The notes beneath the pieces are model-generated. The model had not been told where the DNA came from. It did no database searches and saw only the letters and a list, made by a program, of their open reading frames with translations. From the IMG/VR virus record IMGVR_UViG_3300045988_132337, positions 1-45,095 of that record: a stretch of DNA of 45,095 nucleotides. The stretch is one strand, 5' to 3'. Below, in pieces: positions 12,642 to 45,095 of the stretch. Made by a program: the position numbers and the translations under genes. The stretch is from a virus. Position 1 is the stretch's first letter. Each line of letters begins with the position of its first letter.

Positions 12642-13373
12642 TTAAATATCTAAAGATAACTGATTAATAAATTGAATGTCACTCCAATTTGGCTCCCATT
12701 TTTTTATATAAGCTAATGCTTTATCATAATCTTTTACTTTAATTTGACTTCTATACTGTGATTGAGTAACCATTATTAAATCTCTATCTAATGCTTTAAA
12801 TAAATGTGTGTGCTGTGTGTCGTTCAAATCAACCTTCTTTGCAATTTCAATTTCCCTAATTCTTTCTCCAACTACTCGATTTAAATAATTGTACTGGACT
12901 GATGAAATGCACTGATTGTCTTTGAGTTCTTTGACTTGTTCTTCTAGATCATCAACTCGCTGTGCTGTATTTTCATTTACCTTAATTACAAGTTGTAAGA
13001 TTTCCCTATCACTTGTAGGAATACTAACCTGATTAGTTTTCACTTTAAAATACGTTTCCTCTAATACATCAAACTGTTGCCATGCTTTGTCAGTATCCAA
13101 AATTTTACTGTGGCGGTTTGCTCCACGTTCGGTCCACAGATAAAGTACTGATGCATACTTAATTGAAGGGTCGTGACTATTAGTCACTAGGCTTTTAAAG
13201 CCTTTCAAATCATCACCTTTTAATAAATAGTAATCTCTTCCTTCTACAAACCTCTCTTTGTTTCTTTTAAAATTTTGATTAATGTTATTAGCATCTGTTT
13301 CATAAACTTCTGCCAATTGTTGAGTTGTTAAAACTCTGATTCCTTCATGTTCAATAATTTTTAAACCATTCAT
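12642..13373 (-). CDS. Antirepressor-type protein (ORF6N N-terminal domain, ORF6C C-terminal domain)
   Basis: IRVLTTQQLAEVYETDANNINQNFKRNKERFVEGRDYYLL is ORF6N-like. The C-terminal ...VTQSQYRSQIKVKDYDKALAYIKKWEP resembles the C-terminus of 37905..38657. The start is ATG 13373 behind AAGGGGTG. Confidence 0.7.
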   Translation of the reverse strand: MNGLKIIEHEGIRVLTTQQLAEVYETDANNINQNFKRNKERFVEGRDYYLLKGDDLKGFKSLVTNSHDPSIKYASVLYLWTERGANRHSKILDTDKAWQQFDVLEETYFKVKTNQVSIPTSDREILQLVIKVNENTAQRVDDLEEQVKELKDNQCISSVQYNYLNRVVGERIREIEIAKKVDLNDTQHTHLFKALDRDLIMVTQSQYRSQIKVKDYDKALAYIKKWEPNWSDIQFINQLSLDI

Positions 13374-13396
13374 ATAGTTCACCCCTTTTTTTCACT

Positions 13397-13737: not shown

Positions 13738-13815
13738 CATATATCCGACACATTTTTTATAAATTTGTTTTAAATGTGTCACTTTTGTGTTAATATATAC
13801 TTAGGAGGTGAGAAT

Positions 13816-14214
13816 ATGGATAATTTTTTCGGTAACGAAAAATTGGATAAGTTACTCAATGTATGCATAGGTAAAACAATTAGAGAAATGCGTACAGATA
13901 GAAACATGTCATTAGAAACATTAGGTAATAAGATTGGAAAATCTAAAAAGACAGTTCAAAGATATGAAACAGCCGAAAGTCGTATTTCAATGGACGTATT
14001 GGATGATATTGCAAAAGCATTAAATGTTATTCCCGATGCATTAATTCTTTGTGCTACTGGAAAGTTTAATGACTACATGGAAAGAAATGTAAAACCAATA
14101 CAAAACACAGCGCAATTTATGAGCCTTATCGATAAATTAGTACTGTTATCGGAATCGGAATTAAAGATAGTTGAAGCAACTGTTGACGGAATAATAAACA
14201 ATAGAAAACAGTAG
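13816..14214 (+). CDS. CI-like XRE-family repressor, 132 aa, with no S24 autocleavage domain
   Basis: The start is ATG 13816 behind AGGAGGTG. HTH segment is MSLETLGNKIGKSKKTVQRYETAESRISMDVLDDIAKAL. The short alpha-helical C-terminus has no Ser/Lys peptidase domain. Confidence 0.75.
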   Translation: MDNFFGNEKLDKLLNVCIGKTIREMRTDRNMSLETLGNKIGKSKKTVQRYETAESRISMDVLDDIAKALNVIPDALILCATGKFNDYMERNVKPIQNTAQFMSLIDKLVLLSESELKIVEATVDGIINNRKQ

Positions 14215-14903: not shown

Positions 14904-16091
14904 ATGGTAAGATTAAAACGTAGACCAAATGGCTACGGTACTGTCAAAACCTTATCAGGCAGACGTAGCTGTCCTTATCTTCCTTGTGTGTCTTTTAACG
15001 GTGAGCAAAAACCACTAAATGCTTTTAGTGATCCTGATGATGCTTTTACAGCTCTTGAGATAGCTAAACTCAGGTATGATGATAAACTAAGCGCAAAAGA
15101 AGCAGAAAGACGTTACGGGGATATTTATAAACAGATATCAAATAAATTAGAATTATATATTTTCCAAAGCAATCCCATAAATACTGTCAAACCAAAAACT
15201 ACAATATCTATTTCTAAATCAATTCCAACATTCAAGGAAATCTATGATATTTTAGACGAAGAAGAATTTTCTAAACTGAAATCTAGAGGTCAAAAGCGTA
15301 GCTGGTTTAATAACTTTGATTCTATTCATGAACTACCTATATGTGATATAGAATTTGATGATATGCAATTCGTTCTTGATGAATTAAAAGAACGAGGAAG
15401 AAAAAGCGGTACCTTAGCTCATATGAAAGTAATATGCAAACAGATTTTTGAATATGCAGTAATACGTAAATACGTTAAACCTAATGAAGATTTTTCAAGC
15501 TATCTTAAAATCAAAACAGATAACGAAACGGATAGTAAACACCATCCATTTACTATTGAAGAAATAAGAAAACTATTCAAACACAATACTAGAGAATCTA
15601 AAATTGTATTAATCTACATTTTCACCGGAACACGTCCTATCGAATTATTTAAATTAACAAGGGAAAATATTTATATAGATGTAAAATGTAATGATGACGG
15701 AAATGAAAAGATAATTTCATACATAAATACTGGTAGTAAAACTGAAGCTGGAAGAAATAGGAACATTCCTATTCATGATTTGATAAAACCCTTCATATTG
15801 GAATTAATTAATGAAAACAATATGTATCTGTTTATGAATGACAGTAACAATCAGTATATTGAATTCAGAAAAAATATTTTTAATAACTTAATGGAACAAT
15901 TAAACTTCACACATACTCCATACGATACTCGTCATACATTTAATACTCTTGCTAAATTATATAATATGGATGATTTTTCTCGAAAAAGAATCGTAGGTCA
16001 TAAATCCAAAGATATTACTGATGATGTATATACCCACACAATTTTAAATAAATTATTTGACGAAATGAAAAAAATTAACATTGAAAAATAA
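14904..16091 (+). CDS. int: Tyrosine integrase
   Basis: The C-terminal catalytic region contains TGTRPIELFKL (Arg), PYDTRHTFNT (His-x-x-Arg), VGHKS and DDVYTHT (Tyr). It is adjacent to the attP-like repeats. Confidence 0.9.
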   Translation: MVRLKRRPNGYGTVKTLSGRRSCPYLPCVSFNGEQKPLNAFSDPDDAFTALEIAKLRYDDKLSAKEAERRYGDIYKQISNKLELYIFQSNPINTVKPKTTISISKSIPTFKEIYDILDEEEFSKLKSRGQKRSWFNNFDSIHELPICDIEFDDMQFVLDELKERGRKSGTLAHMKVICKQIFEYAVIRKYVKPNEDFSSYLKIKTDNETDSKHHPFTIEEIRKLFKHNTRESKIVLIYIFTGTRPIELFKLTRENIYIDVKCNDDGNEKIISYINTGSKTEAGRNRNIPIHDLIKPFILELINENNMYLFMNDSNNQYIEFRKNIFNNLMEQLNFTHTPYDTRHTFNTLAKLYNMDDFSRKRIVGHKSKDITDDVYTHTILNKLFDEMKKINIEK

Positions 16092-35570: not shown

Positions 35571-35615
35571 ATAAAAAGAGCCGACTATTACGTTTTTTAC
35601 GTAATACATCGGCTC
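35571..35615 (-). terminator. Intrinsic terminator between the terL unit and the portal gene
   Basis: Long imperfect hairpin (GAGCCGA..TATTACGT aaaaa ACGTAATA..TCGGCTC), followed on the minus strand by TTTTTATTT. Confidence 0.55.
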
Positions 35616-35627
35616 ATGGCTCTGTTT

Positions 35628-35841: not shown

Positions 35842-37482
35842 TTATATTCCTAAATCTTTTCTACTGAAAGTTGTTACAGAAGTGTATTTTCCTCTTCCTC
35901 TTACTTCTGAAAGCATCGCCATGCTGTCTGGTGCATCATCATTTTTATTTTTTCCTACAATTTTAAAAGCATATAGATTATTCATAAACAATTGATATTC
36001 TTTATGTCTGCGCCCGTTATCTAAATAGTAAAACTCTCTAATTTCAGGTGCACGTTCAAATATACGCGCTTCTTTTCGCTTATTAGTTGGTGCTGATTTA
36101 CTTGTTATCGTACATTTATAGTCTCTCTGTTTTAATTCTCTTTCTATCCATTCAGCATATTCGCTTCCGCCATTATTAGCTTCAAACTGAACATACTTAA
36201 CATTATTTTTGATAATACAGTCTACAATTAATGGCCTTGTTATAGTTTTATCACCATTATTAAATACTACATCAGGTATGAAATCTCCGTTTTCAGTTTC
36301 TACGCATACTGGTGCTGAAACATAATCACCACCACCCCACGCAACATCGACCGTCATATAATTTCTTACTGGTTCATCAGCTATTACCCCGTTATAGAAA
36401 TTCATTGTATCAGGTGTAAATAGTGCTCCATCACGCTCAATAGGCTCTCCCATGTATTGAGCTTGCCATGATGCCATATCATTATTTCTTTCAAACTGTG
36501 CTCTTAACTGTTTGTAGTAGTCTGTATTAAATCCAACATTATAATCATAATCAAAATTAGATTCGTCGTTTTCATTAAGCGCTGGTAGATTAATTATTTT
36601 AAACCTTACCTTTTTACCTTCTTCATTATTCTGCAAGAAGTCCATCCTTAAACCAGCCGGATCAATTAAACTCCAGCGTGTACCAATCCATATTTTCTTT
36701 GCAGACTGTTTTGTACGAGGTATTAAATTGTTCGTTACCTTTGACCATGCATTCATTAAACGGTCTTTGTTTAACGCTTCTTCAATACCACCGATTAAGT
36801 CATCACTAATTAAATACCCAGAACAGTCACACGCTCCGTTCAATGTTCCATACAACGAACGACACGTTAATGTTGGATAACGTTTCTTTCTATCAATATC
36901 TATGGTTTCCTTTTTAGCATCAGTATTAGCAATACCTGAATTATTAAATACTTTTTTCCAGTTATATGTATAGCTGTCTGTCACTACCTCCAACACACCA
37001 GTATACATAGCACTTGTAATTATAGCTGAGAACGCACTATATAAATTGCTTGCCTCACCATCTCGCCCCATGATCCACGTAATAAACAACATTAATATAG
37101 TTGTTTTCCCAACACGTGGTGGCATACTTACAAATAATTCATCCAGCTCATCATCAGCTAACGCCTGAAGTTCTTCAACTACAACTTTTAATACTTTCCT
37201 CCGCGGTTGATAGAATCGTTCCTCTGGTGGTCTATCAATTTCTAGATAAATTAAATAATCTTCAAAACAGTAAGGTGCACGAAACAATAAAACTTTACGA
37301 TACAGATCATACCATTCTTCACCTTGTTTAACATTTTTAATTACTGCTCTCTTAACCAGTTCACTGCCTTTTCTTATGCTTAGTTCACTTGTCTCTAATC
37401 TGCATAACTCGAAACAGCTGTTTACTATTTCAAAAGAACTTCCTTTTTTCTTTAATGCATTTGATATTTTATCTACATACAA
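35842..37482 (-). CDS. terL: Terminase large subunit
   Basis: Walker A VSMPPRVGKTT, then Walker B/nuclease regions. 546 aa, upstream of the portal gene. Confidence 0.9.
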   Translation of the reverse strand: MYVDKISNALKKKGSSFEIVNSCFELCRLETSELSIRKGSELVKRAVIKNVKQGEEWYDLYRKVLLFRAPYCFEDYLIYLEIDRPPEERFYQPRRKVLKVVVEELQALADDELDELFVSMPPRVGKTTILMLFITWIMGRDGEASNLYSAFSAIITSAMYTGVLEVVTDSYTYNWKKVFNNSGIANTDAKKETIDIDRKKRYPTLTCRSLYGTLNGACDCSGYLISDDLIGGIEEALNKDRLMNAWSKVTNNLIPRTKQSAKKIWIGTRWSLIDPAGLRMDFLQNNEEGKKVRFKIINLPALNENDESNFDYDYNVGFNTDYYKQLRAQFERNNDMASWQAQYMGEPIERDGALFTPDTMNFYNGVIADEPVRNYMTVDVAWGGGDYVSAPVCVETENGDFIPDVVFNNGDKTITRPLIVDCIIKNNVKYVQFEANNGGSEYAEWIERELKQRDYKCTITSKSAPTNKRKEARIFERAPEIREFYYLDNGRRHKEYQLFMNNLYAFKIVGKNKNDDAPDSMAMLSEVRGRGKYTSVTTFSRKDLGI

Positions 37483-37621
37483 TATAAAAACCCCTTTCCA
37501 TTACGGCTCAGGGGCTCTAATGTGTGACTGCGTTAATTTGCTACGCAAACCAAACCACTCTCCCTTGCAGTCTGTTTTTTTTGTTTGGGAGTTTTTTCGA
37601 TATCTTTAGGATACTTTAATT

Positions 37622-37805
37622 TTATACCTTTTTTTTATTACTTTCAACACCTCGTATGTATCCTAGTGCATAAGCACTAGACACCAACTCTGTATTACTT
37701 TTCGATTTCCTATTTAAAATTAGTATTTCATCCACCATAAGACTACTATCTGTTTTAAATACTTTCTTAGCTTTTTTTAATAATATCAATTAATTTTGAT
37801 TCCAT
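37622..37805 (-). pseudogene. Small gene of about 60 codons, interrupted by a 1-nt frame change in an A7 tract (37772..37778)
   Basis: GGAGGAA-N7-ATG gives MESKLIDIIKK, then the A7 run and a stop two codons later. The +1 frame continues as AKKVFKTDSSLMVDEILILNRKSKSNTELVSSAYALGYIRGVESNKKKV and ends at TAA 37624..37622. Confidence 0.4.
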
Positions 37806-37904
37806 TTTCTTGTTCCTCCATTTAATCTTAGAGGCACTTGTTAAAAGGTAGACAATTTACCTTTTATGTATTATAATACAAGTGCCTGATGGTGACATTC
37901 GTCT

Positions 37905-38657
37905 CTAATCTTGTCGGATTAACGAATGTCTTTTTTTATATTCATTTTTAAATAATGATTGTTGCTCATATCCCATGATGCCAGCTAAAGTAGCTCCACT
38001 AGGATACCAGTTATTAATATAAGCTATAACCTTCTCAAGGTCTTTCTTTAAAATATAATTATATTGTGTTACCCCAGCAATAATGGTTGCATCATGTTTG
38101 ATTTCATTAAATAATTTTCTTCTTTGCTTATTGTTTACAATTAAATTGTTTTCGCTAATAACTTTCTTAATTCTCGACTTCACTTCTCTGCTAATTAAAT
38201 TGCACTCAGATGGTGTTATTGGTAAATCACCTTCAAGCAGATCTAATCTTCTGTCGTGCTCTTTCAATTTGATTTCAGACTGAATCATGAATTGAAGCTC
38301 AGGTGAAAGATTGTGTAGTTGTAATTGGGTATCACGAGCAGTGTTTTCCACAGTTACATAGTAATCTCTCGCCTCTTTCCCCCTAGCTGAATGAGATTCC
38401 ATAGACAAATGTTTAGCAAAGTCAGTTGTCAGCTTATAATCTTTGCATTTATTACCGTTCACCATGATGGTGAACCCCCACCAATCCTTGTTTTCTTCAT
38501 AAAATACATTGTTCTCAATATTCTTTTTAGCCCATCTTTGAAAATGTGCTTTATTCATTTCTAAAAACTCATACAACTTCCTGGCAGTTGTCATACCTTG
38601 TTCATCAATACCTAAAGCAATTTCGATAGGTGTTTGATTCGTTACTACTAATTCCAT
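37905..38657 (-). CDS. Antirepressor (AntA/AntB N-terminal domain, ORF6C-like C-terminal domain)
   Basis: ARKLYEFLEMNKAHFQRWAKKNI...DYKLTTDFAKHLSMESHSARGKEARDYYVTVE matches the AntA signature. The C-terminus ...VTQYNYILKKDLEKVIAYINNWYP parallels that of 12642..13373. Confidence 0.75.
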   Translation of the reverse strand: MELVVTNQTPIEIALGIDEQGMTTARKLYEFLEMNKAHFQRWAKKNIENNVFYEENKDWWGFTIMVNGNKCKDYKLTTDFAKHLSMESHSARGKEARDYYVTVENTARDTQLQLHNLSPELQFMIQSEIKLKEHDRRLDLLEGDLPITPSECNLISREVKSRIKKVISENNLIVNNKQRRKLFNEIKHDATIIAGVTQYNYILKKDLEKVIAYINNWYPSGATLAGIMGYEQQSLFKNEYKKRHSLIRQD

Positions 38658-38659
38658 CT

Positions 38660-38800
38660 CTATTCCCCTTTCTTTGCTAAGTCTTTTTTAATTAAAGTTG
38701 TAATGCAACCTTTGATAGTTTGACCATTTTCAGCACTTCTTATTTTAATTTGCTTATGTAGTCCGCTATCAATTTTAAAGATTAAATTCTTTTCTGCCAT
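38660..38800 (-). CDS. Ribbon-helix-helix (Arc/CopG-like) protein, 46 aa
   Basis: Manual ORF behind GGAGGTG: MAEKNLIFKIDSGLHKQIKIRSAENGQTIKGCITTLIKKDLAKKGE, a beta-strand plus two helices. It is translationally coupled to the antirepressor gene. Confidence 0.55.
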   Translation of the reverse strand: MAEKNLIFKIDSGLHKQIKIRSAENGQTIKGCITTLIKKDLAKKGE

Positions 38801-38827
38801 ATTCATCACCTCCAAATTACATTTATA

Positions 38828-38857
38828 ACTATATCATGATTATATATTGCTTGTAAA
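38828..38857 (-). promoter_or_regulatory. Candidate promoter of the RHH-antirepressor operon: TTTACA-18 nt-TATAGT
   Basis: Read on the minus strand. The 8-bp palindrome ATCATGAT lies in the spacer. Confidence 0.4.
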
Positions 38858-38934
38858 TAATATTTAACTATTTTGTTGTTTTGTGTATTAAAAATTATAT
38901 TTTTATTATATAATATTACTGAGGAGGAATTATA

Positions 38935-39474
38935 ATGGATAGTAAAATTATTTCGTTAAAAATAAAAGAAATAAGAAATATTTTAAACTTAACTCAAAAA
39001 GATTTTGGTAAACTGATAAATGTAGCACAAACTACACTTTCCTCATACGAAAATAATTCGCAAACACCTAATATAGAAACGTTATACAATATTGCAGAAA
39101 AGTGTAATGTATCCATAGATTGGTTATGTGGAAGAGAAGATTTAATGAATGTTAGACTTAATACATATGCTGATATTTTTAAAGTTTTAAGTGATGTTAT
39201 ATTAACGAATGAAGGATTTACCTCAATTATAAATCTAAAAGGACTTGATGCGGGACTTTTAGCCTTTAATGATATAAAAATAAATAAATTCTTAATTGAC
39301 TATTCTAAAATGTACAAATTATTAAATGAAAATGTTATTGAAAAAGATATGTTTGATACCTGGTTAAATGGAAAAATAGATAATGAAAAAAATAATATTA
39401 TAAACTACAATAATATTGATCCTATCTTTGCCTATAGTCTTTTTGAATATGAACATGATTTTAACGGTGAATAA
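38935..39474 (+). CDS. XRE-family HTH regulator with a C-terminal domain of about 110 aa (second repressor)
   Basis: LNLTQKDFGKLINVAQTTLSSYENNSQTPNIETLYNIAEKCNVSIDWL is a classic HTH_3. It is divergent from the RHH-antirepressor operon. Confidence 0.75.
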   Translation: MDSKIISLKIKEIRNILNLTQKDFGKLINVAQTTLSSYENNSQTPNIETLYNIAEKCNVSIDWLCGREDLMNVRLNTYADIFKVLSDVILTNEGFTSIINLKGLDAGLLAFNDIKINKFLIDYSKMYKLLNENVIEKDMFDTWLNGKIDNEKNNIINYNNIDPIFAYSLFEYEHDFNGE

Positions 39475-39510
39475 AAAGCCCCTTACTCATTAGAGTTGGG
39501 GGTTTTTATT
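39473..39510. terminator. Bidirectional terminator between the XRE gene and the lipoprotein gene
   Basis: AAAAAG CCCC tt ACTC atta GAGT t GGGG GTTTTTATTT. Confidence 0.5.
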
Positions 39511-39698
39511 TACCATTCGTTAATTTCATTGATTTTCTTTTGTGCTTCTTCATTTAATTTTCTCTGTTCATCAGCGTATTTTTTACTTTCTTCCGATATT
39601 TTTTCTGATCTTTCTATTTGTTCCTTGTATTCATTATTAGATTCTTTACATCCTACAAAAACAAAGCACAACAGCAATACCAATATTATTTTTTTCAT
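39510..39698 (-). CDS. Small secreted lipoprotein, 62 aa
   Basis: The signal peptide MKKIILVLLLCFVFVGC carries a lipobox. The mature part is charged and coiled-coil. It has its own consensus promoter and the RBS GGGGAGGG. Confidence 0.7.
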   Translation of the reverse strand: MKKIILVLLLCFVFVGCKESNNEYKEQIERSEKISEESKKYADEQRKLNEEAQKKINEINEW

Positions 39699-39727
39699 TT
39701 TATCCCTCCCCTAATTATTCTTCTCTA

Positions 39728-39756
39728 ATTATAAAATATTGATTGGTGTTTTTCAA
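39728..39756 (-). promoter_or_regulatory. Near-consensus sigma-A promoter TTGAAA-17 nt-TATAAT for the lipoprotein gene
   Basis: The minus strand reads TTGAAAaacaccaatcaatatttTATAAT, about 30 nt upstream of the ATG. Confidence 0.65.
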
Positions 39757-39787
39757 TTTATAATATGAGATTAATTTCTTAATATTT

Positions 39788-40357
39788 TCAACCCCTGACA
39801 TAATTATAATACGTACGCTTACCAATACCGACTTCTCTACATGCTTCGGTTACCTTACTACCATTATTAACCATTTTAATTACTTCGTCGACTTTCATCT
39901 TTACATCAGGTCTACCAAACTTAACACCACGCTTTTTAGCCGATTCAATCCCCTCTCTTTGTCTCTCTAATGTTGTGATTCTTTCTTGTTCAGCTACAGA
40001 ACTCAAAACCTCCAGTATTATATTATTAATCATTTCAATAACCCATTGTTGCCCGTCTAGTTCAATTAGTGTCGTAGGCATATTTAAAATTCTTAAAATG
40101 ACACCTTTTTCTTTGAAATAATTAAATTCTCTTATTGTATCTCTCTTATTCCTAGAAAGTCTATCCAGTGCATGAATATAGATTACATCACCAGCTGCTA
40201 CTACTTCTTTTAGTTTTTGATAATTTTCTCTATTGGTATTTTTTCCGCTTAGTTTATCACTATAGATATTTTTAACATCAACATACTTGGTTAGACTATC
40301 AATTTGTCTATCCAATTTTTGCTCTTTAGTTGATACACGAGCATAACCGTAAATCAT
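39788..40357 (-). CDS. Small serine recombinase (resolvase/invertase family), 189 aa
   Basis: The N-terminal MIYGYARVSTKEQ contains the catalytic Ser. It also has DRLSRN and a C-terminal HTH (KVTEACREVGIGKRTYYNY). Confidence 0.9.
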   Translation of the reverse strand: MIYGYARVSTKEQKLDRQIDSLTKYVDVKNIYSDKLSGKNTNRENYQKLKEVVAAGDVIYIHALDRLSRNKRDTIREFNYFKEKGVILRILNMPTTLIELDGQQWVIEMINNIILEVLSSVAEQERITTLERQREGIESAKKRGVKFGRPDVKMKVDEVIKMVNNGSKVTEACREVGIGKRTYYNYVRG

Positions 40358-40359
40358 AT

Positions 40360-40602
40360 CTATTCCTCCTCATTGTTTAATATTACTGATCTTGATACTT
40401 TATCACTTCCGTTTTTAGGTCTTAAAACAACTTCATATCCCAATGCATCCATAATATTTACTAATGTTTCTATTTTTGGATTATTTGCTCTCAACACCGT
40501 GTTAAGACTACTTGGTCTGGCATAACCCATTTTTTCACTCAATACTTTTTGTGTCATGTGTTCTTGTTTAAGAATCTTTTTTATTGCTTGTTTTGTTTTC
40601 AT
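40360..40602 (-). CDS. XRE-like HTH protein, 80 aa, co-transcribed with the recombinase
   Basis: MTQKVLSEKMGYARPSSLNTVLRANNPKIETLVNIMDALGYEV. Its stop is 2 nt from the recombinase start. Confidence 0.7.
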   Translation of the reverse strand: MKTKQAIKKILKQEHMTQKVLSEKMGYARPSSLNTVLRANNPKIETLVNIMDALGYEVVLRPKNGSDKVSRSVILNNEEE

Positions 40603-40619
40603 TTTATCACCTCAAATAT

Positions 40620-40648
40620 ATTATACTTATTTATGCGTTTATTTTCAA
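40620..40648 (-). promoter_or_regulatory. Near-consensus promoter TTGAAA-17 nt-TATAAT for the HTH-recombinase operon, with ATAAATAAGTAT repeats
   Basis: The minus strand reads cttATAAATAAGTATTGAAAataaacgcATAAATAAGTATAAT. The 12-mer occurs twice, overlapping the -35 and -10 elements. Confidence 0.65.
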
Positions 40649-40714
40649 TACTTATTTATAAGTCTTTTTTATTTTTCGGGTGGAGAAGGACATCAGATAT
40701 ACTATATATACACT

Positions 40715-40734
40715 AAAAAACACCCCTAGGGGTG
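40715..40734 (-). terminator. Palindrome CACCCCTAGGGGTG followed by a T6 run on the minus strand
   Basis: The plus strand reads AAAAAACACCCCTAGGGGTG. It would stop minus-strand read-through before the recombinase promoter. Confidence 0.45.
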
Positions 40735-40790
40735 CATAAAAGTGGTTTTTATTGCACATTTTAATTATACTTATATATACGTTTTAATCG

Positions 40791-40819
40791 TTGATAAAAT
40801 ACTCGTTTGTACGTATAAT
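40791..40819 (+). promoter_or_regulatory. Near-consensus promoter TTGATA-17 nt-TATAAT for the plus-strand island operon
   Basis: TTGATAaaatactcgtttgtacgTATAAT. The leader contains the hairpin GGTAAGT taatt ACTTACC. Confidence 0.6.
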
Positions 40820-40882
40820 AATAGTGTGGTAAGTTAATTACTTACCCGTAAGTATTTTAAAAAGTAAAGGAGGTGATCAACG

Positions 40883-40990
40883 ATGGCAATAAAAAAAGAA
40901 GTAGAGCTATATAAAGAATGGTGCAACACTCTAGGGCTTAAACCTTACGAAGGTAGAAACCTGATAGCTTACTTCAACGCTAATATGTAG
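40883..40990 (+). CDS. Small ORF, 35 aa
   Basis: AAAGGAGGTG-N7-ATG gives MAIKKEVELYKEWCNTLGLKPYEGRNLIAYFNANM. It is followed by the hairpin GTAGGGGCT tatat AGCCCTTAC. Confidence 0.45.
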   Translation: MAIKKEVELYKEWCNTLGLKPYEGRNLIAYFNANM

Positions 40991-41065
40991 GGGCTTATAT
41001 AGCCCTTACATACATAGTATACCATAAACAATTAAATATATAAAGAATATCAGGAGGATAGAAAC

Positions 41066-41764
41066 ATGGAAAACTTAACTATTGAAGAAATTGAAGCATT
41101 ATCTATTGATGAAGTAAAAACTATTACTTTAGAAAAACTATACGTAAAAGGATTTGATATTTATTTAGTTGATCTGGGTGAGTATTTTGGTTACTCTGCA
41201 TTAGTTTTTAAAGATAATCACCACGTTTATTTTGCAAATTTATATGAACTGCACTATAGATACAATAGTCCAACTCATGAACAGTTAAAGAAAAAATATA
41301 TTAGTTTACTAAATAATAAATTGTTTACAGATGAAGAACTAACAACGGTAAAAGATCACGAAGACTATGAGAAGAAAACCTATTTTATTAGAAATTATAT
41401 GTCACAAGAGTATGATTGTTTAACAGCTTTCTGTATTAACGGAATATATAAAGGTAAAGACAAGGAAAAATACGAAAGCGGCGAATATACTGCTTATAGC
41501 AATATTGCTTTCGCTTATTTTAAGGATAACAGTTATCAGAATAGGGCGAAACCATTAATTAGTAAATTAGAAAGATCATACAAAGAAGCCATGGAAAATA
41601 TTGATAATTTTAAAGAAGCGGTAAAACAGGCTTTATATAATTATGAGGCATGTATTACTTGCGAATATGAAACGGCTTTAGAATCCTTGGGGTTGGTTTT
41701 TGAAAATCTACCAAAAAATAAACAAATGGTAGTTATAGAAACATTTAAAGAAGTTACAGCATAA
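41066..41764 (+). CDS. Hypothetical protein, 232 aa; no recognisable motif
   Basis: ORF behind the RBS AGGAGGA. It is the main product of the plus-strand island operon. Confidence 0.7.
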   Translation: MENLTIEEIEALSIDEVKTITLEKLYVKGFDIYLVDLGEYFGYSALVFKDNHHVYFANLYELHYRYNSPTHEQLKKKYISLLNNKLFTDEELTTVKDHEDYEKKTYFIRNYMSQEYDCLTAFCINGIYKGKDKEKYESGEYTAYSNIAFAYFKDNSYQNRAKPLISKLERSYKEAMENIDNFKEAVKQALYNYEACITCEYETALESLGLVFENLPKNKQMVVIETFKEVTA

Positions 41765-41869
41765 AAGCGATAACAAAACAATGGAACTATACATAATTAG
41801 AACGTTTTACCGTTTGCACCTGATAGATCTAAAAACCGCTTTAACCCTAAGCAAGGGGGTGAAATATTA

Positions 41870-41971
41870 ATGCTTTGGTTAATTAAAGTAATGTTCAACA
41901 TAGCATTTAATATAATATTAGCGCCTATAACATTTATAAAAGTATTTGCATTATGTGCTAAAAGAAGATAG
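41870..41971 (+). CDS. 33-aa hydrophobic peptide with a basic C-terminus; type I toxin-like or small membrane peptide
   Basis: AAGGGGGTG-N8-ATG gives MLWLIKVMFNIAFNIILAPITFIKVFALCAKRR. The stop is embedded in an intrinsic terminator. Confidence 0.5.
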   Translation: MLWLIKVMFNIAFNIILAPITFIKVFALCAKRR

Positions 41972-41990
41972 CTATTAAGCTATCTTTTTT
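41965..41990 (+). terminator. Intrinsic terminator AAGATAGC tattaa GCTATCTT TTTT
   Basis: Perfect 8-bp stem followed by a T run. Confidence 0.65.
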
Positions 41991-42010
41991 ATTAGCTAAA
42001 TAAAATAACT

Positions 42011-42040
42011 AAAAAATACGTCGTATAAGCGGCGTTTTTT
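42011..42040. terminator. Second, bidirectional terminator AAAAAAT ACGTCG tataag CGGCGT TTTTT
   Basis: 6-bp stem with one G-U pair, flanked by A6 and T6 runs. Its loop and 3' arm (CGTATAAGCG, 42022..42031) are complementary to 42077..42086. Confidence 0.55.
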
Positions 42041-42323
42041 ATTTACCCTACAAATATAACCATTTATCACAAACAACGCTTATACGCTAAATTATAGTTA
42101 TTCAGCCAAATACACACTTCTTTATATACTTATATAAATCATTCCTAGCCACTATATGAGTTGTTTAACATTCTTACTATATTTTATGCCTTTGTACATA
42201 AAACAGCCCCTACAGTAACAAAAAAATAATAAAAACGCGAATTTAACAACCATTTTAGTCACACACTAAATAAATACTAAGCTGAAATCCCCTATTAATG
42301 CGTTTCTGTCAAATTTTGGGTAC

Positions 42324-42347
42324 AAAAAAACGGAAATTAATCCGTTT
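42324..42347 (-). terminator. Intrinsic terminator overlapping the terS stop codon
   Basis: The minus strand reads AAACGGA ttaatt TCCGTTT TTTTGTA. The stop TAA at 42339..42337 lies in the loop. Confidence 0.6.
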
Positions 42348-42990
42348 CTATTACATCAGCTTCAATTATTTCTAAAAGTTCATCGGCTGTTTTAGTTTCA
42401 CCTAGGTTATTTTCATGTTTAACGATACTTTCGGTCTGATCTTTCATGCCGTAGTAGTTTTTTGCTCTGAAAATATACGCCACTGGGTTCATCTTACCGT
42501 TTATTAATAAATTGGCATCAAAATCAGACAATAATTGACGAATTCTTTTTGCTAAGTCAAACCTATCAAACTCCGATTTACTATCTTTTTCACTCCAATT
42601 ATACAATGTTTGAGTAGTTGTACCGATTGCAAGTGCACACCCTTCCAGAGTTGGTTTTAATTGATTTTTGTAGCAGTCGTTAAAATAAAATTCAATACGT
42701 TGTGCTATTTCTTCGTCATTCTTAGCCATTGGTACATTCCAGTATTTGAATGCGTGTTCTAAAAGTTTAGCATTTATCGGATCACTGATACTAGAAAGTG
42801 ATGGCGTATTAGAACGTTCGCCGCCACGGGTTTCGTTTTGATTAATCGGTGACGTAGTACCGTTTATTTTTGCCTTAGTTCTAGCAATATCATTTAGTGT
42901 ATAGAGTTTATCAGGGTCTACATCGATATTTAAAGATTCAGCTTTATTTAAAAGTGCTTCTTTAGTTCTTGGTTTATGTTTTCTAGTCAT
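42337..42990 (-). CDS. terS: Terminase small subunit
   Basis: ...YFNDCYKNQLKPTLEGCALAIGTTTQTLYNWSE...NPVAYIFRAKNYYGMKDQTE matches the typical Firmicute phage TerS pattern (PT..GLA..LG...TL..W ... NP.GAIF.LKN.FGW.D). The likely start is MTRKHK at 42990. Confidence 0.75.
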   Translation of the reverse strand: MTRKHKPRTKEALLNKAESLNIDVDPDKLYTLNDIARTKAKINGTTSPINQNETRGGERSNTPSLSSISDPINAKLLEHAFKYWNVPMAKNDEEIAQRIEFYFNDCYKNQLKPTLEGCALAIGTTTQTLYNWSEKDSKSEFDRFDLAKRIRQLLSDFDANLLINGKMNPVAYIFRAKNYYGMKDQTESIVKHENNLGETKTADELLEIIEADVIETD

Positions 42991-43051
42991 TATTATCACA
43001 TCCTAATAAATTTAATAGTTTAGCATTATTTTCATCGATTCTTATAAACAT
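42983..43051 (-). CDS. Possible 22-codon leader ORF overlapping the terS start
   Basis: AAGGAGGAAAAT-ATG gives MFIRIDENNAKLLNLLGCDNND. It has a strong RBS but is very short. Confidence 0.25.
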   Translation of the reverse strand: MFIRIDENNAKLLNLLGCDNND

Positions 43052-43071: not shown

Positions 43072-43330
43072 TAAATGACATTATGACGTTGACATATAGG
43101 GTCATTATTATATATATGTAATTATATATATTTTTAGTGTTTTTTATTTATTTCTTAATAATATATATATTGAACGTCATAAATGTCATAATATATAAAA
43201 AACCTTACAATACCAACGGTTTTAGGGCATGACGATTATATTTTTATTATTGTCATTTTATTGTCATAATTTTAATATGAATGTCATAATTTCGAACCGC
43301 TGGTAAATGTCGTGACAATAAATGTCGTTA
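43072..43330. repeat. Iteron cluster (TGTCATAAT-like, about 10 copies) flanking an AT-only stretch; putative replication origin, alternatively pac/TerS sites
   Basis: aTGTCATAAT at 43183..43192 and 43281..43290; tTGTCATAAT at 43261..43270. Variants: cGTCATAAa 43176, tGTCATttt 43252, gGTCATtat 43101, TGTCGT 43308 and 43323. Two copies are inverted at 43072..43090. The stretch 43106..43170 has only 3 G/C bases. Confidence 0.55.
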
Positions 43331-45095
43331 ACTATGACGCTTGATGCCTCTGTATGACGATTTTCTATACTCCTCTATGTCATTCCTATATTCTTTAGCA
43401 CACTTTAAAAATTCTTTCTTAAATGCTCTCATGTTACTTTTGTATGTATAGCCGTTACGCGCCGACCATGAAGAATATAATGAATATAATTCCTGATTAG
43501 TGAGTTCGCTTACTTCGCGATAAACAGTATTGCAGTCGCTGTCTAATTCTTCAATAGTCCAGTTGAACTCCTTAGTAAAAAGCACGATAGGATTTGCTGT
43601 CTCCTTGTATTCTTCCATCTGTTCCTTCTGATCATCGGGAATCGTAAACTTACCATTATGTTTTAGTTTTTTATATCCCTCATATACCCAGTTGAATATA
43701 CCTGACAGATTTTCAGGTGTTTGTAATTTAGCTTCGATGTTTCTATCTGCGCTACGTTCATTTTCATTTACCGGGTTGTCTGTAAATTTAAATGGAAACT
43801 TTAAAATAAGCATTCTTCGCGTAAATCCATCAGTTAGATCGCGGGATTTTGGCAGTTCGTTACATCCAAAGAATAATTTGCACCGAGGCTTGAACTGGAT
43901 AAAGTCCTTGCCTTTGTAGCAAGCCTGAATCGGATCTCCGGCAACAACCGATTTGAAATTGGTTTCCGCCCCCTTGGAATCTGTCTTAGTTTCGTTAGAA
44001 ACATTTATCAGTTTACCCATCAGGTAGATGAGCTGAAATTTATCATTGAACGCTGTAAGCTCTACATTAGATACATTCGAAGCACCGCCAAAAACACGCT
44101 GTATTGTGTTTAGATATACTGATTTACCATTAGCCCCATTTCCTACTAAGTAAAGTGCTGACTGTAATATGTTTGTTGAATATAAAGCGTACCCCGAATA
44201 TTCCTGAAGCAGTTGGATTTTCTTGGGATCATCGAAAATTGAATTGATGAATTTATCCCAGTCACTTGAATGAGCATTTGGATTGTACGGATAAGGCAGT
44301 TCATATGATAAAAAATCATTTTCGTTATGCTCACGTAAATTTCCAGTTTCGATTTCAAATGTACCGTTAACGAAATTTATAAGCGGTTTCTCGTTAGGAA
44401 TTTTATCCGTAACTGTATCTGCCTTGATTAACCCTAAAACTGAATTTAATTTAGATAATGTACGTACTGAACTGTATTCCTGACCGATATATTTACGACA
44501 CTGTTCATCAGTTATTGACTGCCAGTATCGCCCGTTGTATTCCATTATCCCCAATGATGGATTATGTATAAATTTATGTTTTTTCATGACGACCTTTGCT
44601 ATTTCATCGTCTGTTGATGGTTTTAATGACATAGATTTTACCTCCTTGATCCACTCTTTTGACGCATCAGGGAAAATTTGATCCCTGATTATAACATCAA
44701 AAATATCAATGATATCTGTACGTTTTATATAACGCCGATTATTAATTATAAAGTTTTCAAAATCTTCCTTATTTTTAAACATTTTAGCTAATGATTTAAT
44801 ACCTTGCTCTGCATCGTTGATTAAAGCAGCTAAATTCCCACCATCCTGATAGTAGTCTGAAATATCCTTATATTTAGATGGGGGTGTTGATACAATGAAC
44901 GGTATGTGATAGCTGAATAATTTTTTGGCCATTGAAACTGTAAACTGTCCGCCTGATTTATCGTTGTCGAACGTCAATAGGACCTTGTCAAAATTTTTAG
45001 CTATCTGTAATATATGTTTTGTTTGTTTTTTTGAAAAAGCCCCCCCCGCCATACTTAATACAGCGTAGTTTTCCTGATAGAACGATAAATAATCA
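43328..45095 (-). CDS. DNA primase/helicase, C-terminal part (Toprim DxD, D5/P4-type SF3 helicase); the N-terminus is at 1..711
   Basis: LLTFDNDKSGG is the Toprim motif. LVGNGANGKSVYLN is a D5/P4 family Walker A. The combined protein is 807 aa. Confidence 0.85.
   Translation of the reverse strand, partial: DYLSFYQENYAVLSMAGGAFSKKQTKHILQIAKNFDKVLLTFDNDKSGGQFTVSMAKKLFSYHIPFIVSTPPSKYKDISDYYQDGGNLAALINDAEQGIKSLAKMFKNKEDFENFIINNRRYIKRTDIIDIFDVIIRDQIFPDASKEWIKEVKSMSLKPSTDDEIAKVVMKKHKFIHNPSLGIMEYNGRYWQSITDEQCRKYIGQEYSSVRTLSKLNSVLGLIKADTVTDKIPNEKPLINFVNGTFEIETGNLREHNENDFLSYELPYPYNPNAHSSDWDKFINSIFDDPKKIQLLQEYSGYALYSTNILQSALYLVGNGANGKSVYLNTIQRVFGGASNVSNVELTAFNDKFQLIYLMGKLINVSNETKTDSKGAETNFKSVVAGDPIQACYKGKDFIQFKPRCKLFFGCNELPKSRDLTDGFTRRMLILKFPFKFTDNPVNENERSADRNIEAKLQTPENLSGIFNWVYEGYKKLKHNGKFTIPDDQKEQMEEYKETANPIVLFTKEFNWTIEELDSDCNTVYREVSELTNQELYSLYSSWSARNGYTYKSNMRAFKKEFLKCAKEYRNDIEEYRKSSYRGIKRHS
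45041..45095. repeat. Terminal overlap, identical to 1..55
   Basis: Exact 55-bp match to the start of the window. Confidence 0.95.

What the first reader, a model, noticed from the sequence alone, without database searches (positions are those of the whole stretch)
37483..42336. A 4.85-kb autonomously regulated accessory island splits terS from terL
terS (42337..42990) ends inside its own intrinsic terminator, and terL does not start until 37482. In phages with this TerS/TerL type the two genes are normally adjacent or overlapping. The gap holds about 11 ORFs on both strands. It also holds three near-consensus sigma-A promoters: TTGAAA-17-TATAAT at 39728..39756 and at 40620..40648, and TTGATA-17-TATAAT at 40791..40819. 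At least five terminator-like hairpins are present. This is the signature of genes expressed independently of the late operon, for example from the prophage. The content is two regulators, an RHH-antirepressor pair, a lipoprotein, a serine recombinase, an unknown 232-aa protein and a toxin-like peptide. That mix looks like a composite immunity, exclusion or mobile cassette rather than packaging genes. I could not match it to any described system.
Basis: partly seen in the sequence, partly recalled or inferred. Interest (0 to 1): 0.8.

Follow-up and report, generated by a model that had tools for sequence, protein, structure and literature searches.

The report
Standing accessory-gene locus between terminase genes
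The 4.85 kb between this gut phage's two DNA-packaging genes is not a recent insertion but a permanent accessory-gene locus shared by its whole lineage, built around a conserved plasmid-type resolvase whose role is unknown and flanked by slots where immunity-type genes are swapped in and out.

Summary
terS (42337..42990) and terL (35842..37482) are 4.85 kb apart. The gap holds about 10 ORFs on both strands, the three named promoters, at least six hairpins, and the stated gene content.

In all 27 relatives that carry both genes (TerL 52-100% identical), terS and terL are 2.6-8.1 kb apart, as they are in the cultured Clostridium phage Maintenon. The split is therefore ancestral.

Close relatives share a backbone:
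- a non-coding block after terS
- two small ORFs
- a divergent promoter region with one 26-bp palindrome
- an HTH gene coupled to a Sin/Tn3-like serine resolvase (dN/dS 0.04-0.07, catalytic residues intact)

Two slots beside this core vary between genomes. In this phage, slot A holds a 232-aa protein with no fold match in PDB. Slot B holds a small lipoprotein and a P22 immI-like unit (XRE regulator facing an RHH-antirepressor pair). Relatives carry toxin-antitoxin or dCTP-deaminase-like genes there, or nothing.

A serine recombinase sits in the gap in 26 of 27 relatives, sometimes of a different subfamily. I found no evidence for inversion, att-like repeats or an assembly artefact. The resolvase's role is inferred, not shown. 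My best guess is resolution or cyclisation of repeated genome copies.

The parts
42337..42999 (-). terS, small terminase of the P22 gp3 type. The likely ATG start is at 42990.
   Evidence: PF16677 3.3e-11 and PHROG 606. 81-99% identical in close relatives.
42326..42349 (-). Intrinsic-terminator-like hairpin with the terS stop codon in its loop, followed by a U7 run.
   Evidence: Fold energy -9.8 kcal/mol, z-score -2.6. L001/L010 carry changes on both sides of the loop that add one G-C pair to the stem.
41972..42325 (.). Conserved non-coding block downstream of terS. Function unknown; it could be a pac site, a binding site or an RNA.
   Evidence: It aligns across all 10 close loci, including the 72%-identical L001/L010. 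An 11-nt indel rules out the 36-aa ORF. No Rfam match.
41870..41971 (+). orf33, a conserved 33-aa hydrophobic peptide. It is the last gene of the antisense operon and is followed by hairpins at 41961..41990 and 42018..42035.
   Evidence: Intact in all close loci at 76-94% aa identity. Hairpins folded.
41046..41846 (+). Variable slot A. Here it holds orf232 (41066..41764), a DUF7659-like protein.
   Evidence: Homology with 8 loci breaks at 41045 and at 41847/41867. Only L013 shares orf232 (92%). AF2 model pLDDT 91 with no PDB fold match. Pfam DUF7659 score is below the curated cut-off.
40883..40990 (+). orf35, a conserved small ORF and the first gene of the antisense operon. A hairpin follows at 40985..41011.
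   Evidence: 88-100% aa identity in close loci. Hairpin -16.9 kcal/mol.
40603..40882 (.). Divergent control region. It contains the + strand promoter at 40791..40819 and the - strand promoter at 40648..40620. A second copy of the -10/spacer lies at 40764..40784. A hairpin plus T-run lies at 40720..40735. The only copy in the genome of a 26-bp palindrome lies at 40732..40757; it is a candidate operator or res crossover site.
   Evidence: The palindrome is present at the same place in all 9 close loci, with its outer GTGCA/TGCAC kept.
40360..40602 (-). HTH80, a small XRE-type regulator. It lies 2 nt upstream of the resolvase start, so the two are probably co-translated.
   Evidence: PF01381 7.7e-6. 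71-90% aa identity in close loci. dN/dS 0.07-0.16. An analogous small HTH precedes the recombinase in clade 2 and in L040/L042.
39788..40357 (-). Small serine recombinase of the resolvase type (Sin/Tn3/gamma-delta-like), 189 aa.
   Evidence: PF00239 1.5e-30. PDB matches: Sin 6e-27, Tn3 6e-26, Gin 3e-13. Catalytic residues conserved. dN/dS 0.04-0.07. 44-47% identical to plasmid recombinases of Firmicutes.
37614..39787 (.). Variable slot B, the cargo of this phage.
   Evidence: Homology with relatives breaks within 3 nt of the resolvase stop codon and resumes at 37613 or 37521. At least 7 different contents occur among 11 close genomes.
39510..39698 (-). lipo62, a 62-aa lipoprotein (lipobox FVGC). 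Its own promoter is at 39756..39728, and it ends at the bidirectional terminator 39474..39507.
   Evidence: A role in superinfection exclusion is inference only.
38935..39474 (+). xre179, an XRE/CI-type regulator transcribed divergently from the RHH-antirepressor pair.
   Evidence: PF01381 2.2e-16 and PHROG 8. Diverged counterparts (32-43%) occupy the same position in L006 and L010, and a different XRE does so in L005.
38660..38815 (-). rhh51, a ribbon-helix-helix protein in the position of P22 Arc.
   Evidence: Omega_Repress 2.7e-5 (below cut-off), PHROG 582 Arc-like 6e-4, PHROG 37719 5.7e-10.
37905..38657 (-). ant250, an antirepressor-type protein (AntA N-terminal domain plus ORF6C).
   Evidence: PF08346 1.1e-13, PF10552 3.1e-13, PHROG 373 5e-38. 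It shares the ORF6C domain with the ORF6N protein of the lysogeny module.
37622..37789 (-). orf55, a small ORF of unknown function.
   Evidence: 83-96% aa identity in L005, L006, L011 and L012. No family match.
37483..37613 (-). Conserved leader of terL. It carries the GAGCC-N-GAGCC motif (37505..37517) and a hairpin (37487..37518) that pairs the motif with the terL ribosome-binding site and ends in U5.
35842..37482 (-). terL, large terminase (TTG start).
   Evidence: PHROG 38 8e-51 and PF22530.

Best explanation
The terS-terL interval is this phage lineage's standing accessory-gene locus. It is not an insertion specific to this genome.

Conserved core:
- a non-coding block after terS
- an antisense operon framed by orf35 and orf33
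- a divergent promoter/operator region with one 26-bp palindrome
- an HTH gene coupled to a plasmid-type (Sin/Tn3-like) serine resolvase

Variable slots. Slot A lies inside the antisense operon. Slot B starts at the resolvase stop codon and ends at the terL leader. Cargo in these slots is exchanged between genomes, most simply by recombination in the conserved flanks.

In this phage the locus forms five small transcription units, each with sigma-A-like promoters and intrinsic terminators. This is the classic moron layout.
- orf35-orf232-orf33: function unknown.
- HTH80-resolvase.
- lipo62: a candidate exclusion lipoprotein.
- xre179 facing rhh51-ant250-orf55: a second immunity unit that follows the logic of P22 immI. 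A maintenance regulator and an Arc-like RHH control an antirepressor.

Shown: the anatomy, its conservation, the variability of the slots, and that the recombinase is intact and under purifying selection.

Inferred:
- These units are expressed from the prophage or immediately after entry.
- The resolvase acts on the palindromic site in its own promoter region to resolve directly repeated genome copies, either dimers or terminally redundant infecting DNA. This would parallel plasmid Sin/res and P1 Cre/lox next to pac. I put about 0.35 on this specific role.

The primary lysogeny module, with a tyrosine integrase, lies elsewhere at 12.6-16.1 kb.
For: Lineage-wide split:
- All 27 relatives with both genes are split by 2633-8116 bp.
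- Phage Maintenon is split by 2.65 kb.

Conserved backbone and sharp, recurrent junctions:
- Junctions fall at 41847/41867, 41045, 39786-39792 and 37504-37521.

Variable cargo among genomes with TerL at least 88% identical:
- Panacea + PemK-like pair
- dCTP-deaminase-like gene + a predicted membrane protein
- other XRE/RHH/antirepressor sets
- empty slots

Recombinase:
- Present in 26 of 27 relatives, with Y6, R8, S10, D67, R68, R71 and R125 kept in all except L002, which has S at the D67 position. In clade 2 two different subfamilies occupy the same place.
- The same layout (terS, antisense cargo, HTH, resolvase, terL, portal) occurs in two further gut-phage lineages that share only 49-58% resolvase identity.
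- It is resolvase-like rather than invertase-like. Its closest annotated relatives are plasmid recombinases of Firmicutes.
- dN/dS 0.04-0.07, the same as terL.

Other support:
- Promoters and hairpins verified.
- The canonical lysogeny module lies elsewhere.
- Independent assemblies confirm the joins.
Against: - There are no expression data, so prophage-state or early expression is inference from promoter and terminator matches. The overall count of promoter-like sites is at chance level.
- No second site or multi-subsite res was demonstrated. The palindrome could simply be the HTH80 operator.
- The phage has its own Sak4-like annealase, Gam-like protein and SSB, so it does not obviously need a site-specific route to circularise.
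- An active resolvase would work against concatemer formation late in infection.
- Maintenon and L032 have the split but no recombinase, so the split does not depend on it.
- Many of the 27 loci are close relatives. They represent about 5-6 independent lineages. L040-L043 were found by searching with the resolvase, so they are a biased sample.
Confidence: 0.8

Rival explanations
1. A composite mobile or immunity island inserted recently between normally adjacent terS and terL genes of this phage.
For: - The island has lower GC than its flanks.
- It has genes on both strands, its own promoters and terminators, and a recombinase gene.
- terS and terL are adjacent in distant phages such as phiCD119 and TVCOM_ph1, where TerL is 25-30% identical.
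Against: - No relative has adjacent terS-terL.
- The recombinase, HTH80, orf33, orf35 and the non-coding blocks are a conserved backbone. Their divergence tracks that of TerL, TerS and the portal.
- There are no terminal repeats or target duplications at 37483 or 42336.
Confidence: 0.05
2. The recombinase is a DNA invertase. It would flip a segment of the island (a promoter, or the xre179 3' end together with the lipo62 gene) to phase-vary cargo expression.
For: - PHROG 125 is labelled DNA invertase.
- A perfect 18-nt inverted repeat (39382-39399 / 39682-39699) lies 89 bp from the recombinase gene. None of 300 simulated sequences reaches that length.
- Inversion there would truncate lipo62 and give xre179 a new tail.
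Against: - The protein is much closer to Sin/Tn3/gamma-delta resolvases than to Gin.
- The repeat is A-rich coding sequence (MKKIIL / NEKNNI). It has no dyad symmetry and is absent from relatives with equivalent genes.
- All 11 close loci are collinear with the window.
- The predicted inverted junction is absent from IMG/VR and from metagenome contigs, while the reference junction occurs 5 times.
Confidence: 0.08
3. The recombinase drives the cargo turnover itself. On this view the locus is an integron-like or res-hunter-like platform, where cassettes are captured site-specifically next to the recombinase gene.
For: - Both variable slots abut the HTH-resolvase module in every lineage.
- Four different downstream sequences start within 3 nt of the resolvase stop codon.
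- In clade 2 the body of the recombinase gene is exchanged while its last ~50 nt are kept. In L002 and L018/L033 foreign genes lie inside its 3' part.
- The HExxH gene in relatives is flanked by a 17-bp direct repeat.
Against: - The junctions share no motif.
- The 17-bp repeat is a copy of a motif that also precedes the portal, tape-measure and lysin genes. It is not specific to cassettes.
- Breakpoints at gene boundaries are what ordinary phage mosaicism plus selection produces.
- L013 shows plain block exchange, with breakpoints at the orf35 start and inside or after terL.
- Small resolvases are not known to capture cassettes.
Confidence: 0.08
4. Assembly artefact. The island would be a chimeric join of unrelated contigs.
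For: None found. The window is a metagenomic-style circular assembly with a 55-bp end overlap.
Against: - Independent assemblies cover 37504..41037 at 94-99% identity.
- Ten loci span terS into the island. Six span the leader into terL. L011 and L012 span rhh-ant-orf55-terL. L013 spans terS through the resolvase.
Confidence: 0.01

Closest known systems
Morons of lambdoid phages (Hendrix/Juhala definition; my own knowledge)
   Same: These are promoter-gene-terminator units that sit between late genes. They are present or absent among relatives, differ in composition from the flanks, and are thought to be expressed from the prophage.
   Different: Here the units cluster at one fixed locus between terS and terL that is kept across a whole lineage. 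They surround a conserved recombinase-regulator core rather than being scattered single insertions.
P22 immI region (mnt | arc-ant), embedded in the late region (my own knowledge)
   Same: An antirepressor gene is preceded by a small RHH gene. A divergently transcribed regulator faces them. The unit lies among late genes, far from the primary repressor.
   Different: The divergent regulator is an XRE-type HTH protein with a ~110-aa C-terminal part, not an RHH like Mnt. The antirepressor belongs to the AntA/ORF6C type. No sar-like RNA was shown. The function is untested.
Plasmid and transposon resolution systems (Sin/res, beta/six of pSM19035, Tn3 and gamma-delta res)
   Same: The protein family is the same. 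The gene sits next to a divergent promoter region that carries palindromic sites, as in Tn3, where res lies between tnpA and tnpR.
   Different: It is encoded in an integrating tailed phage between its terminase genes. It is co-transcribed with a separate HTH protein. No multi-subsite res has been defined.
P1 Cre/lox next to pacAB (my own knowledge)
   Same: A site-specific recombinase and its site lie beside the packaging genes of a headful phage. There it cyclises terminally redundant DNA and resolves dimers.
   Different: Cre is a tyrosine recombinase and P1 is a plasmid prophage. In this phage the pac site, packaging direction and terminal redundancy are all unknown.
Genus-specific auxiliary genes between TerS and TerL in a Ca. 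Heliusvirales subfamily (bioRxiv 10.64898/2026.05.11.724261)
   Same: Variable cargo lies between terS and terL of temperate gut Bacillota phages, and both the insertion site and the content vary.
   Different: It is probably a different lineage. The window shows no DNA polymerase I or head protease, which are Heliusvirales markers according to PMC11283538. That preprint's text does not mention a recombinase.
PeSL regulatory cassettes of T4-type phages (my own knowledge)
   Same: A repeated regulatory motif at gene boundaries coincides with the points where genes are exchanged. Here that motif is GAGCC-N-GAGCC.
   Different: The motif, the phage type and the position all differ. That the motif mediates exchange here is only a possibility.

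Membership tests
Moron / accessory hotspot in a phage late region | Own promoter and own terminator around each unit | tested here: met
   Promoters matching 11 of 12 consensus positions lie directly upstream of lipo62, HTH80 and orf35. Both hexamers of the HTH80 promoter are kept in diverged relatives. Hairpins with U-runs were verified by folding. These are consensus-level matches only, without transcript data.
Moron / accessory hotspot in a phage late region | Presence/absence or replacement among close relatives | tested here: met
   Slot A has at least 4 different contents and slot B at least 7 among 11 genomes with TerL at least 88% identical. Slot B is empty in L008, L014 and L013.
Moron / accessory hotspot in a phage late region | Expression from the prophage, independent of late transcription | not testable with these tools
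   Needs RNA-seq or transcription-start mapping of a lysogen.
P22-type immI (secondary immunity with antirepressor) | Antirepressor protein | tested here: met
   AntA 1.1e-13, ORF6C 3.1e-13, PHROG 373 anti-repressor 5e-38. This is domain-level evidence; activity is untested.
P22-type immI (secondary immunity with antirepressor) | Arc-like RHH gene immediately upstream in the same operon | tested here: inconclusive
   The 51-aa ORF ends 2 nt before the ant250 start. Its RHH matches are below Pfam cut-offs (Omega_Repress 24.8 bits against a cut-off of 33.3; PHROG 582 Arc-like 6e-4).
P22-type immI (secondary immunity with antirepressor) | Mnt-like RHH maintenance repressor transcribed divergently | tested here: not met
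   The divergent gene encodes an XRE HTH_3 protein (2.2e-16), not an RHH. The layout is the same but the family is different.
Small serine recombinase, resolvase subgroup | N-terminal catalytic domain with the Ser nucleophile and the conserved Arg/Asp residues | tested here: met
   PF00239 1.5e-30. Y6, R8, S10, D67, R68, R71 and R125 align with gamma-delta resolvase.
Small serine recombinase, resolvase subgroup | C-terminal HTH DNA-binding domain | tested here: inconclusive
   HTH_7 scores 23.3 bits against a cut-off of 23.8. Alignments to Sin, Tn3 and gamma-delta chains run to residues 184-187 of 189.
Small serine recombinase, resolvase subgroup | Closer to resolvases than to invertases | tested here: met
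   Sin 6e-27, Tn3 6e-26, gamma-delta 4e-23, against Gin 3e-13.
Small serine recombinase, resolvase subgroup | Adjacent res site with crossover and accessory subsites | tested here: inconclusive
   There is one 26-bp palindrome (40732..40757) plus repeated promoter-spacer motifs in the upstream region. L040 has three tandem palindromes in the equivalent region. These cannot be told apart from operators.
Serine DNA invertase system (Hin/Gin/Cin/Pin) | Inverted crossover sites flanking a segment next to the gene, with both orientations present in populations | tested here: not met
   There is only one 18-nt inverted repeat. It lacks dyad symmetry and is not conserved. No assembly shows the inverted junction, against 5 with the reference junction. 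All relatives are collinear.
Integron-like cassette platform | Cassettes bounded by a shared recombination site | tested here: not met
   The junctions share no motif. The only repeat at a cassette edge is the late-gene GAGCC motif.
Cre/lox-type cyclisation module beside pac | Recombination site lies inside the terminal redundancy of packaged DNA | not testable with these tools
   Needs virion DNA reads to locate pac, the packaging direction and the size of the redundancy.
Ca. Heliusvirales | Marker set that includes DNA polymerase I and a head maturation protease (PMC11283538) | tested here: inconclusive
   The early genes I scanned include a D5-type primase, an SNF2 helicase, Sak4, Gam and SSB. 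Scaffold and capsid ORFs follow the portal. I saw no Pol I or protease, but I did not scan every ORF.

The most novel reading that the evidence does not exclude
The HTH-resolvase pair and the palindromic site in its promoter region would be a pac-proximal site-specific resolution or cyclisation device. It would be a serine-recombinase counterpart of P1 Cre/lox, recruited from Firmicute plasmids.

If packaging runs from terS towards terL, as it does in P22 and SPP1, then this DNA lies in the terminal redundancy of first-headful virions and enters the cell first. On that reading the locus has become the lineage's immediate-early platform. Sigma-A-driven anti-immunity and exclusion genes (antirepressors, toxin-antitoxin pairs, nucleotide-depleting enzymes) would accumulate and turn over there. 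This would explain why a catalytically intact serine recombinase is kept, or replaced by another subfamily, at this one position across several gut-phage lineages.
Probability: 0.15. Interest if true: 0.75.

Novelty: new variant of a known kind. Interest (0 to 1): 0.5.

Why it matters
For annotation. In this widespread group of gut Firmicute phages, a terS-terL gap of several kb should be expected. It should not be flagged as an insertion or a misassembly. The locus is also a predictable place to look for prophage-encoded immunity, exclusion and toxin-antitoxin genes.

For biology. A catalytically intact plasmid-type resolvase with a partner HTH is retained between the packaging genes under selection as strong as on terL. 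In one clade it is replaced by another serine recombinase subfamily at the same spot. This points to a function in the phage life cycle that has not been described and can be tested directly with a two-site recombination assay and a deletion mutant.

If that function is genome cyclisation or resolution, it would be a second, independently evolved solution to the problem that P1 solves with Cre/lox.

Tried and rejected
1. att-like direct repeats. The 17-bp repeat ATTAGAGCC(N)TGAGCCG flanks the HExxH gene in relatives and looked like a cassette site. It is a copy of GAGCC-N2-6-GAGCC, which also precedes the portal, tape-measure and lysin genes. Rejected as an island-specific site.
2. Shared motif at the slot junctions. 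None was found.
3. Invertible segment. Only one notable inverted repeat exists. It is not conserved, and no inverted junction occurs in public contigs.
4. Known RNA families. There were no Rfam matches in the window region at E up to 1, nor in six clade-2 loci at gathering threshold.
5. Defence-system models (PADLOC). The window proteins gave only generic HTH matches.
6. orf232 function. The model is confident, but there is no PDB fold match and only one BFVD relative with an uninformative name.
7. My guess that the acidic antisense cargo of clade 2 is ArdA-like anti-restriction. Pfam does not support it.
8. Near-identical DNA in INPHARED. None was found, and no cultured phage has this resolvase above 40% identity.
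9. Membership of Ca. Heliusvirales. Markers were not seen, so it is left open.
10. dN/dS for orf33. Not usable, because a 3-nt indel misaligns the codons.
Other searches found no description of a resolvase between terS and terL.

Full report
WHAT THE WINDOW IS

The window is a complete circular assembly of a temperate siphovirus-like phage of about 45.04 kb. Its two ends overlap by 55 bp, and the primase gene runs across the join.

Most genes lie on the - strand. The order is primase/D5 helicase (43328..45052), terS, the interval in question, terL, a 49-aa ORF, SPP1-type portal, scaffold, capsid, tail genes and lysin.

A canonical lysogeny module lies far away. It comprises a tyrosine integrase (14904..16091), an XRE repressor (13774..14214) and an ORF6N/ORF6C antirepressor-like gene (12642..13382).

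The early region encodes a Sak4-like annealase, a Gam-like protein and an SSB.

The closest cultured phage is Clostridium phage Maintenon of [Clostridium] innocuum, with TerL 42% identical. The closest genome bin is labelled 'uncultured Tenericutes'.

CHECK OF THE OBSERVATION

- terS is a P22 gp3-type small terminase, and terL is a PHROG 38 large terminase.
- The 4,854-bp gap holds ten credible ORFs on both strands. An eleventh (42152..42262) is not conserved as a reading frame.
- The three named promoters each match 11 of 12 consensus positions. Promoter-like sites overall are not enriched (48 found, 52 expected). However, these three are among only four such sites in 9.6 kb, and each lies just upstream of an ORF. 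For the promoter at 40648..40620, both hexamers persist in relatives whose spacers have changed. For the promoter at 40791..40819, only the -10 hexamer persists in L001.
- Seven hairpins fold well. One holds the terS stop codon in its loop. Another is a bidirectional terminator between xre179 and lipo62.
- GC is 0.26-0.30 in the island and 0.33-0.36 beside it.

THE SPLIT IS A TRAIT OF THE LINEAGE

TerL searches of GTDB genomes and IMG/VR returned 38 loci. In all 27 relatives where both terS and terL could be placed, the two genes are 2,633 to 8,116 bp apart. None is contiguous.

Phage Maintenon has a 2.65-kb gap with tRNA genes and unrelated ORFs.

Adjacent terS-terL appears only in much more distant phages, with TerL 25-30% identical.

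BACKBONE AND SLOTS

Nine close relatives that span the interval (TerL 88-99% identical: L001, L005-L010, L013, L014) share a backbone with the window. L011 and L012 cover only its terL-proximal end. The backbone runs as follows:
1. terS with its hairpin.
2. A ~350-bp conserved non-coding block.
3. orf33.
4. Slot A.
5. orf35.
6. A conserved divergent control region.
7. HTH80.
8. The resolvase.
9. Slot B.
10. The terL leader.

Homology breaks at the same points in many loci: 41847/41867, 41045, 39786-39792 and 37504-37521.

Four different downstream sequences begin within 3 nt of the resolvase stop codon.

Slot A holds orf232 only in the window and L013. Elsewhere it holds a 96-aa acidic protein, with or without a 73-aa protein, or other small ORFs.

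Slot B contents differ widely:
- L008, L014 and L013: empty.
- L001 and L010: a Panacea/SocA-like plus PemK/MazF-like pair and a large lipoprotein.
- L007 and L009: a dCTP-deaminase-like gene plus a predicted membrane protein.
- L005, L006 and L010: other XRE / RHH / antirepressor sets.

Independent assemblies reproduce the window's own slot B at 94-99% identity. The arrangement is therefore not a chimera.

CONTENT OF THE WINDOW'S SLOTS

orf232 belongs to a small family related to DUF7659. Its AlphaFold model is confident (pLDDT 91) but matches no solved structure, with a best E-value of 1.7. Its function remains unknown.

lipo62 is a 62-aa lipoprotein with its own promoter and terminator. A role in superinfection exclusion is inference by analogy with prophage lipoproteins such as Ltp (my own knowledge).

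xre179 is transcribed away from rhh51-ant250-orf55. Three features copy the logic of the P22 immI region:
- A small RHH gene abuts an AntA/ORF6C antirepressor gene.
- A regulator faces this pair.
- The unit lies among late genes, far from the primary repressor.

The facing regulator, however, is an XRE protein rather than an RHH like Mnt.

ant250 shares its ORF6C domain with the ORF6N protein of the lysogeny module.

Antirepressor-type genes are the commonest cargo at this locus. In clade 2 a Bro-N protein sits between the HTH gene and the recombinase.

THE CONSERVED RECOMBINASE

A serine recombinase lies in the gap in 26 of 27 relatives.

The window's enzyme matches Sin, Tn3 and gamma-delta resolvases (E 6e-27 to 4e-23) far better than Gin invertase (3e-13). 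It is 44-47% identical to recombinases on plasmids of Clostridium, Bacillus, Priestia and Veillonella. No cultured phage has a relative above 40% identity.

Across the 19 distinct gap recombinases, Y6, R8, S10, R68, R71 and R125 are invariant, and D67 is kept in all but L002, which has S. dN/dS is 0.04-0.07 for the resolvase, 0.07-0.16 for HTH80 and 0.06 for terL.

In clade 2 (TerL about 56% identical), two different subfamilies occupy the same position. One is a 200-aa resolvase. The other is a 251-318-aa Resolvase+Recombinase-domain protein without a zinc ribbon. The body of the gene has been exchanged between a conserved upstream block and the last ~50 nt of the gene.

Resolvase homologues at 49-58% identity lead to two further gut-phage lineages with the same layout: terS, antisense cargo, small HTH, resolvase, terL, SPP1 portal. 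One of them is a ~60-kb phage seen in 155 data blocks. A third homologue sits in an unrelated element.

WHAT THE RECOMBINASE DOES NOT APPEAR TO DO

Inversion:
- All close loci are collinear with the window.
- The only notable inverted repeat is 18 nt at 39382/39682. It is longer than in any of 300 simulations. However, it is A-rich coding sequence, it lacks dyad symmetry, and it is absent from relatives.
- The predicted inverted junction is absent from IMG/VR and from metagenome contigs. The reference junction occurs five times.

Cassette capture:
- The junctions share no motif.
- The 17-bp direct repeat that flanks a 95-aa HExxH gene just upstream of terL in relatives is a copy of GAGCC-N2-6-GAGCC. 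That motif occurs four times in the window, always on the late strand, in front of terL, portal, tape measure and lysin. Shuffles give 0.02 expected. The window lacks the HExxH gene, which fits a deletion between two copies of the motif.

Integration: the phage has a tyrosine integrase elsewhere. In the Lachnospiraceae prophage L003 the locus is internal to the prophage.

MOST LIKELY MECHANISM

Shown: the locus is ancestral, has a conserved core under purifying selection, and has two exchangeable slots built from promoter-gene-terminator units.

Inferred: the units are read by host RNA polymerase in the lysogen or directly after entry, as morons are. Late transcription either reads through the hairpins or restarts near terL. 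The terL leader hairpin pairs the GAGCC motif with the terL ribosome-binding site and ends in a U-run.

For the resolvase I commit, at about 0.35, to the default activity of its family. That is resolution between directly repeated copies of a site in its own divergent promoter region. The only palindrome of its kind in the genome lies there (40732..40757) and is conserved in place in all close relatives. The substrates would be genome dimers, or terminally redundant infecting DNA if the site lies within the redundancy. P1 Cre/lox, next to pacAB, works this way (my own knowledge).

Four points count against this:
- The phage has its own annealase.
- The palindrome may simply be the HTH80 operator.
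- A resolvase active late in infection would undo concatemers.
- The split exists without a recombinase in Maintenon and L032.

COMPARISON WITH WHAT IS KNOWN, AND NOVELTY

Morons, secondary immunity regions and plasmid resolution systems are all known. Variable auxiliary genes between TerS and TerL were noted in passing for a Ca. Heliusvirales subfamily in a 2026 preprint. The window does not show the Heliusvirales markers I could check.

I could not find any description of a conserved HTH-resolvase core between the terminase genes, kept or replaced at the same spot across several gut-phage lineages, with the accessory slots on either side.

I therefore rate the finding as a new variant of a known kind, of moderate interest.

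LIMITS

- No reads, transcripts or experiments were available.
- Many of the 27 loci are close relatives, so they represent perhaps five or six independent lineages.
- L040-L043 were found through the resolvase and are therefore a biased sample.

Noticed in passing
window 18061-18072, 29894-29909, 35611-35622, 37505-37517 (all - strand): The motif GAGCC-N2-6-GAGCC recurs just after a stop codon and 25-60 nt before the starts of the lysin, tape-measure, portal and terL genes. Four copies were found against 0.02 expected. It is conserved at the same places in L001 and L005-L014. In several cases it forms the foot of a hairpin plus U-run, or pairs with the next gene's ribosome-binding site. It may be a regulatory or processing element of the late operon.
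   Followed up: partly
L005-L009, L011, L012, L014 just upstream of terL (e.g. L008 9670-9957); the site where it is missing is window 37504-37521: A 95-140-aa HExxH (weakly SprT-like) gene sits directly upstream of terL in 16 loci of both clades, flanked by two copies of the GAGCC motif. The window, L001, L010 and L013 lack it, which looks like a deletion between the repeats.
   Followed up: partly
window 39382-39399 and 39682-39699: A perfect 18-nt inverted repeat joins the 3' end of xre179 to the start of lipo62, 89 bp from the resolvase gene. It is longer than in any of 300 simulated sequences. It is not conserved in relatives, and no inverted junction occurs in public contigs.
   Followed up: yes
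window 41972-42325: A ~350-bp non-coding block after the terS terminator is conserved even in the 72%-identical L001/L010. It has no strong promoter and no Rfam match. It could be a pac site, a protein-binding region, or an RNA convergent with the hydrophobic orf33 (a type I toxin-antitoxin layout is possible).
   Followed up: partly
window 43074-43290: Seven copies of a motif like (A/T)(A/T)(T/C)GTCATAAT cluster in the 330-bp primase-terS intergenic region, including the only two exact copies in the genome. They may be iterons, TerS-binding repeats or late-promoter repeats.
   Followed up: partly
L021 7886-8180 (also L002, L003, L015-L038): A GC-rich conserved non-coding block lies just upstream of the clade-2 recombinase gene. 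It showed up as spurious 'ORF families' in 13 and 8 loci. It has no Rfam family, and it bounds the segment in which the recombinase body is swapped.
   Followed up: partly
L002 4090-6577; L018/L033 8014-9019: In some clade-2 phages the recombinase catalytic domain is separated from the conserved C-terminal end (MNWVKGVHEPIL...) by foreign ORFs or by a replaced segment. The last ~50 nt of the gene therefore survive as a fixed boundary.
   Followed up: partly
window 41066-41764: orf232 gives a confident AlphaFold model (pLDDT 91, pTM 0.84). It has no similar solved structure and only one predicted viral relative, so it may have a new fold.
   Followed up: yes
window 37849-37898: Two overlapping face-to-face promoter-like sites share one ATTATAAT core between ant250 and orf55. 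The + strand site would make RNA antisense to the 3' end of ant250.
   Followed up: no
window 1-55 and 45041-45095: An exact 55-bp terminal overlap shows that the window is a complete circular assembly. The primase gene spans the join.
   Followed up: yes
L050 337-437 versus window 39757-39788: Another assembly of the same phage type carries about 100 extra bp exactly at the resolvase stop-codon junction. This is one more variant at that breakpoint.
   Followed up: no
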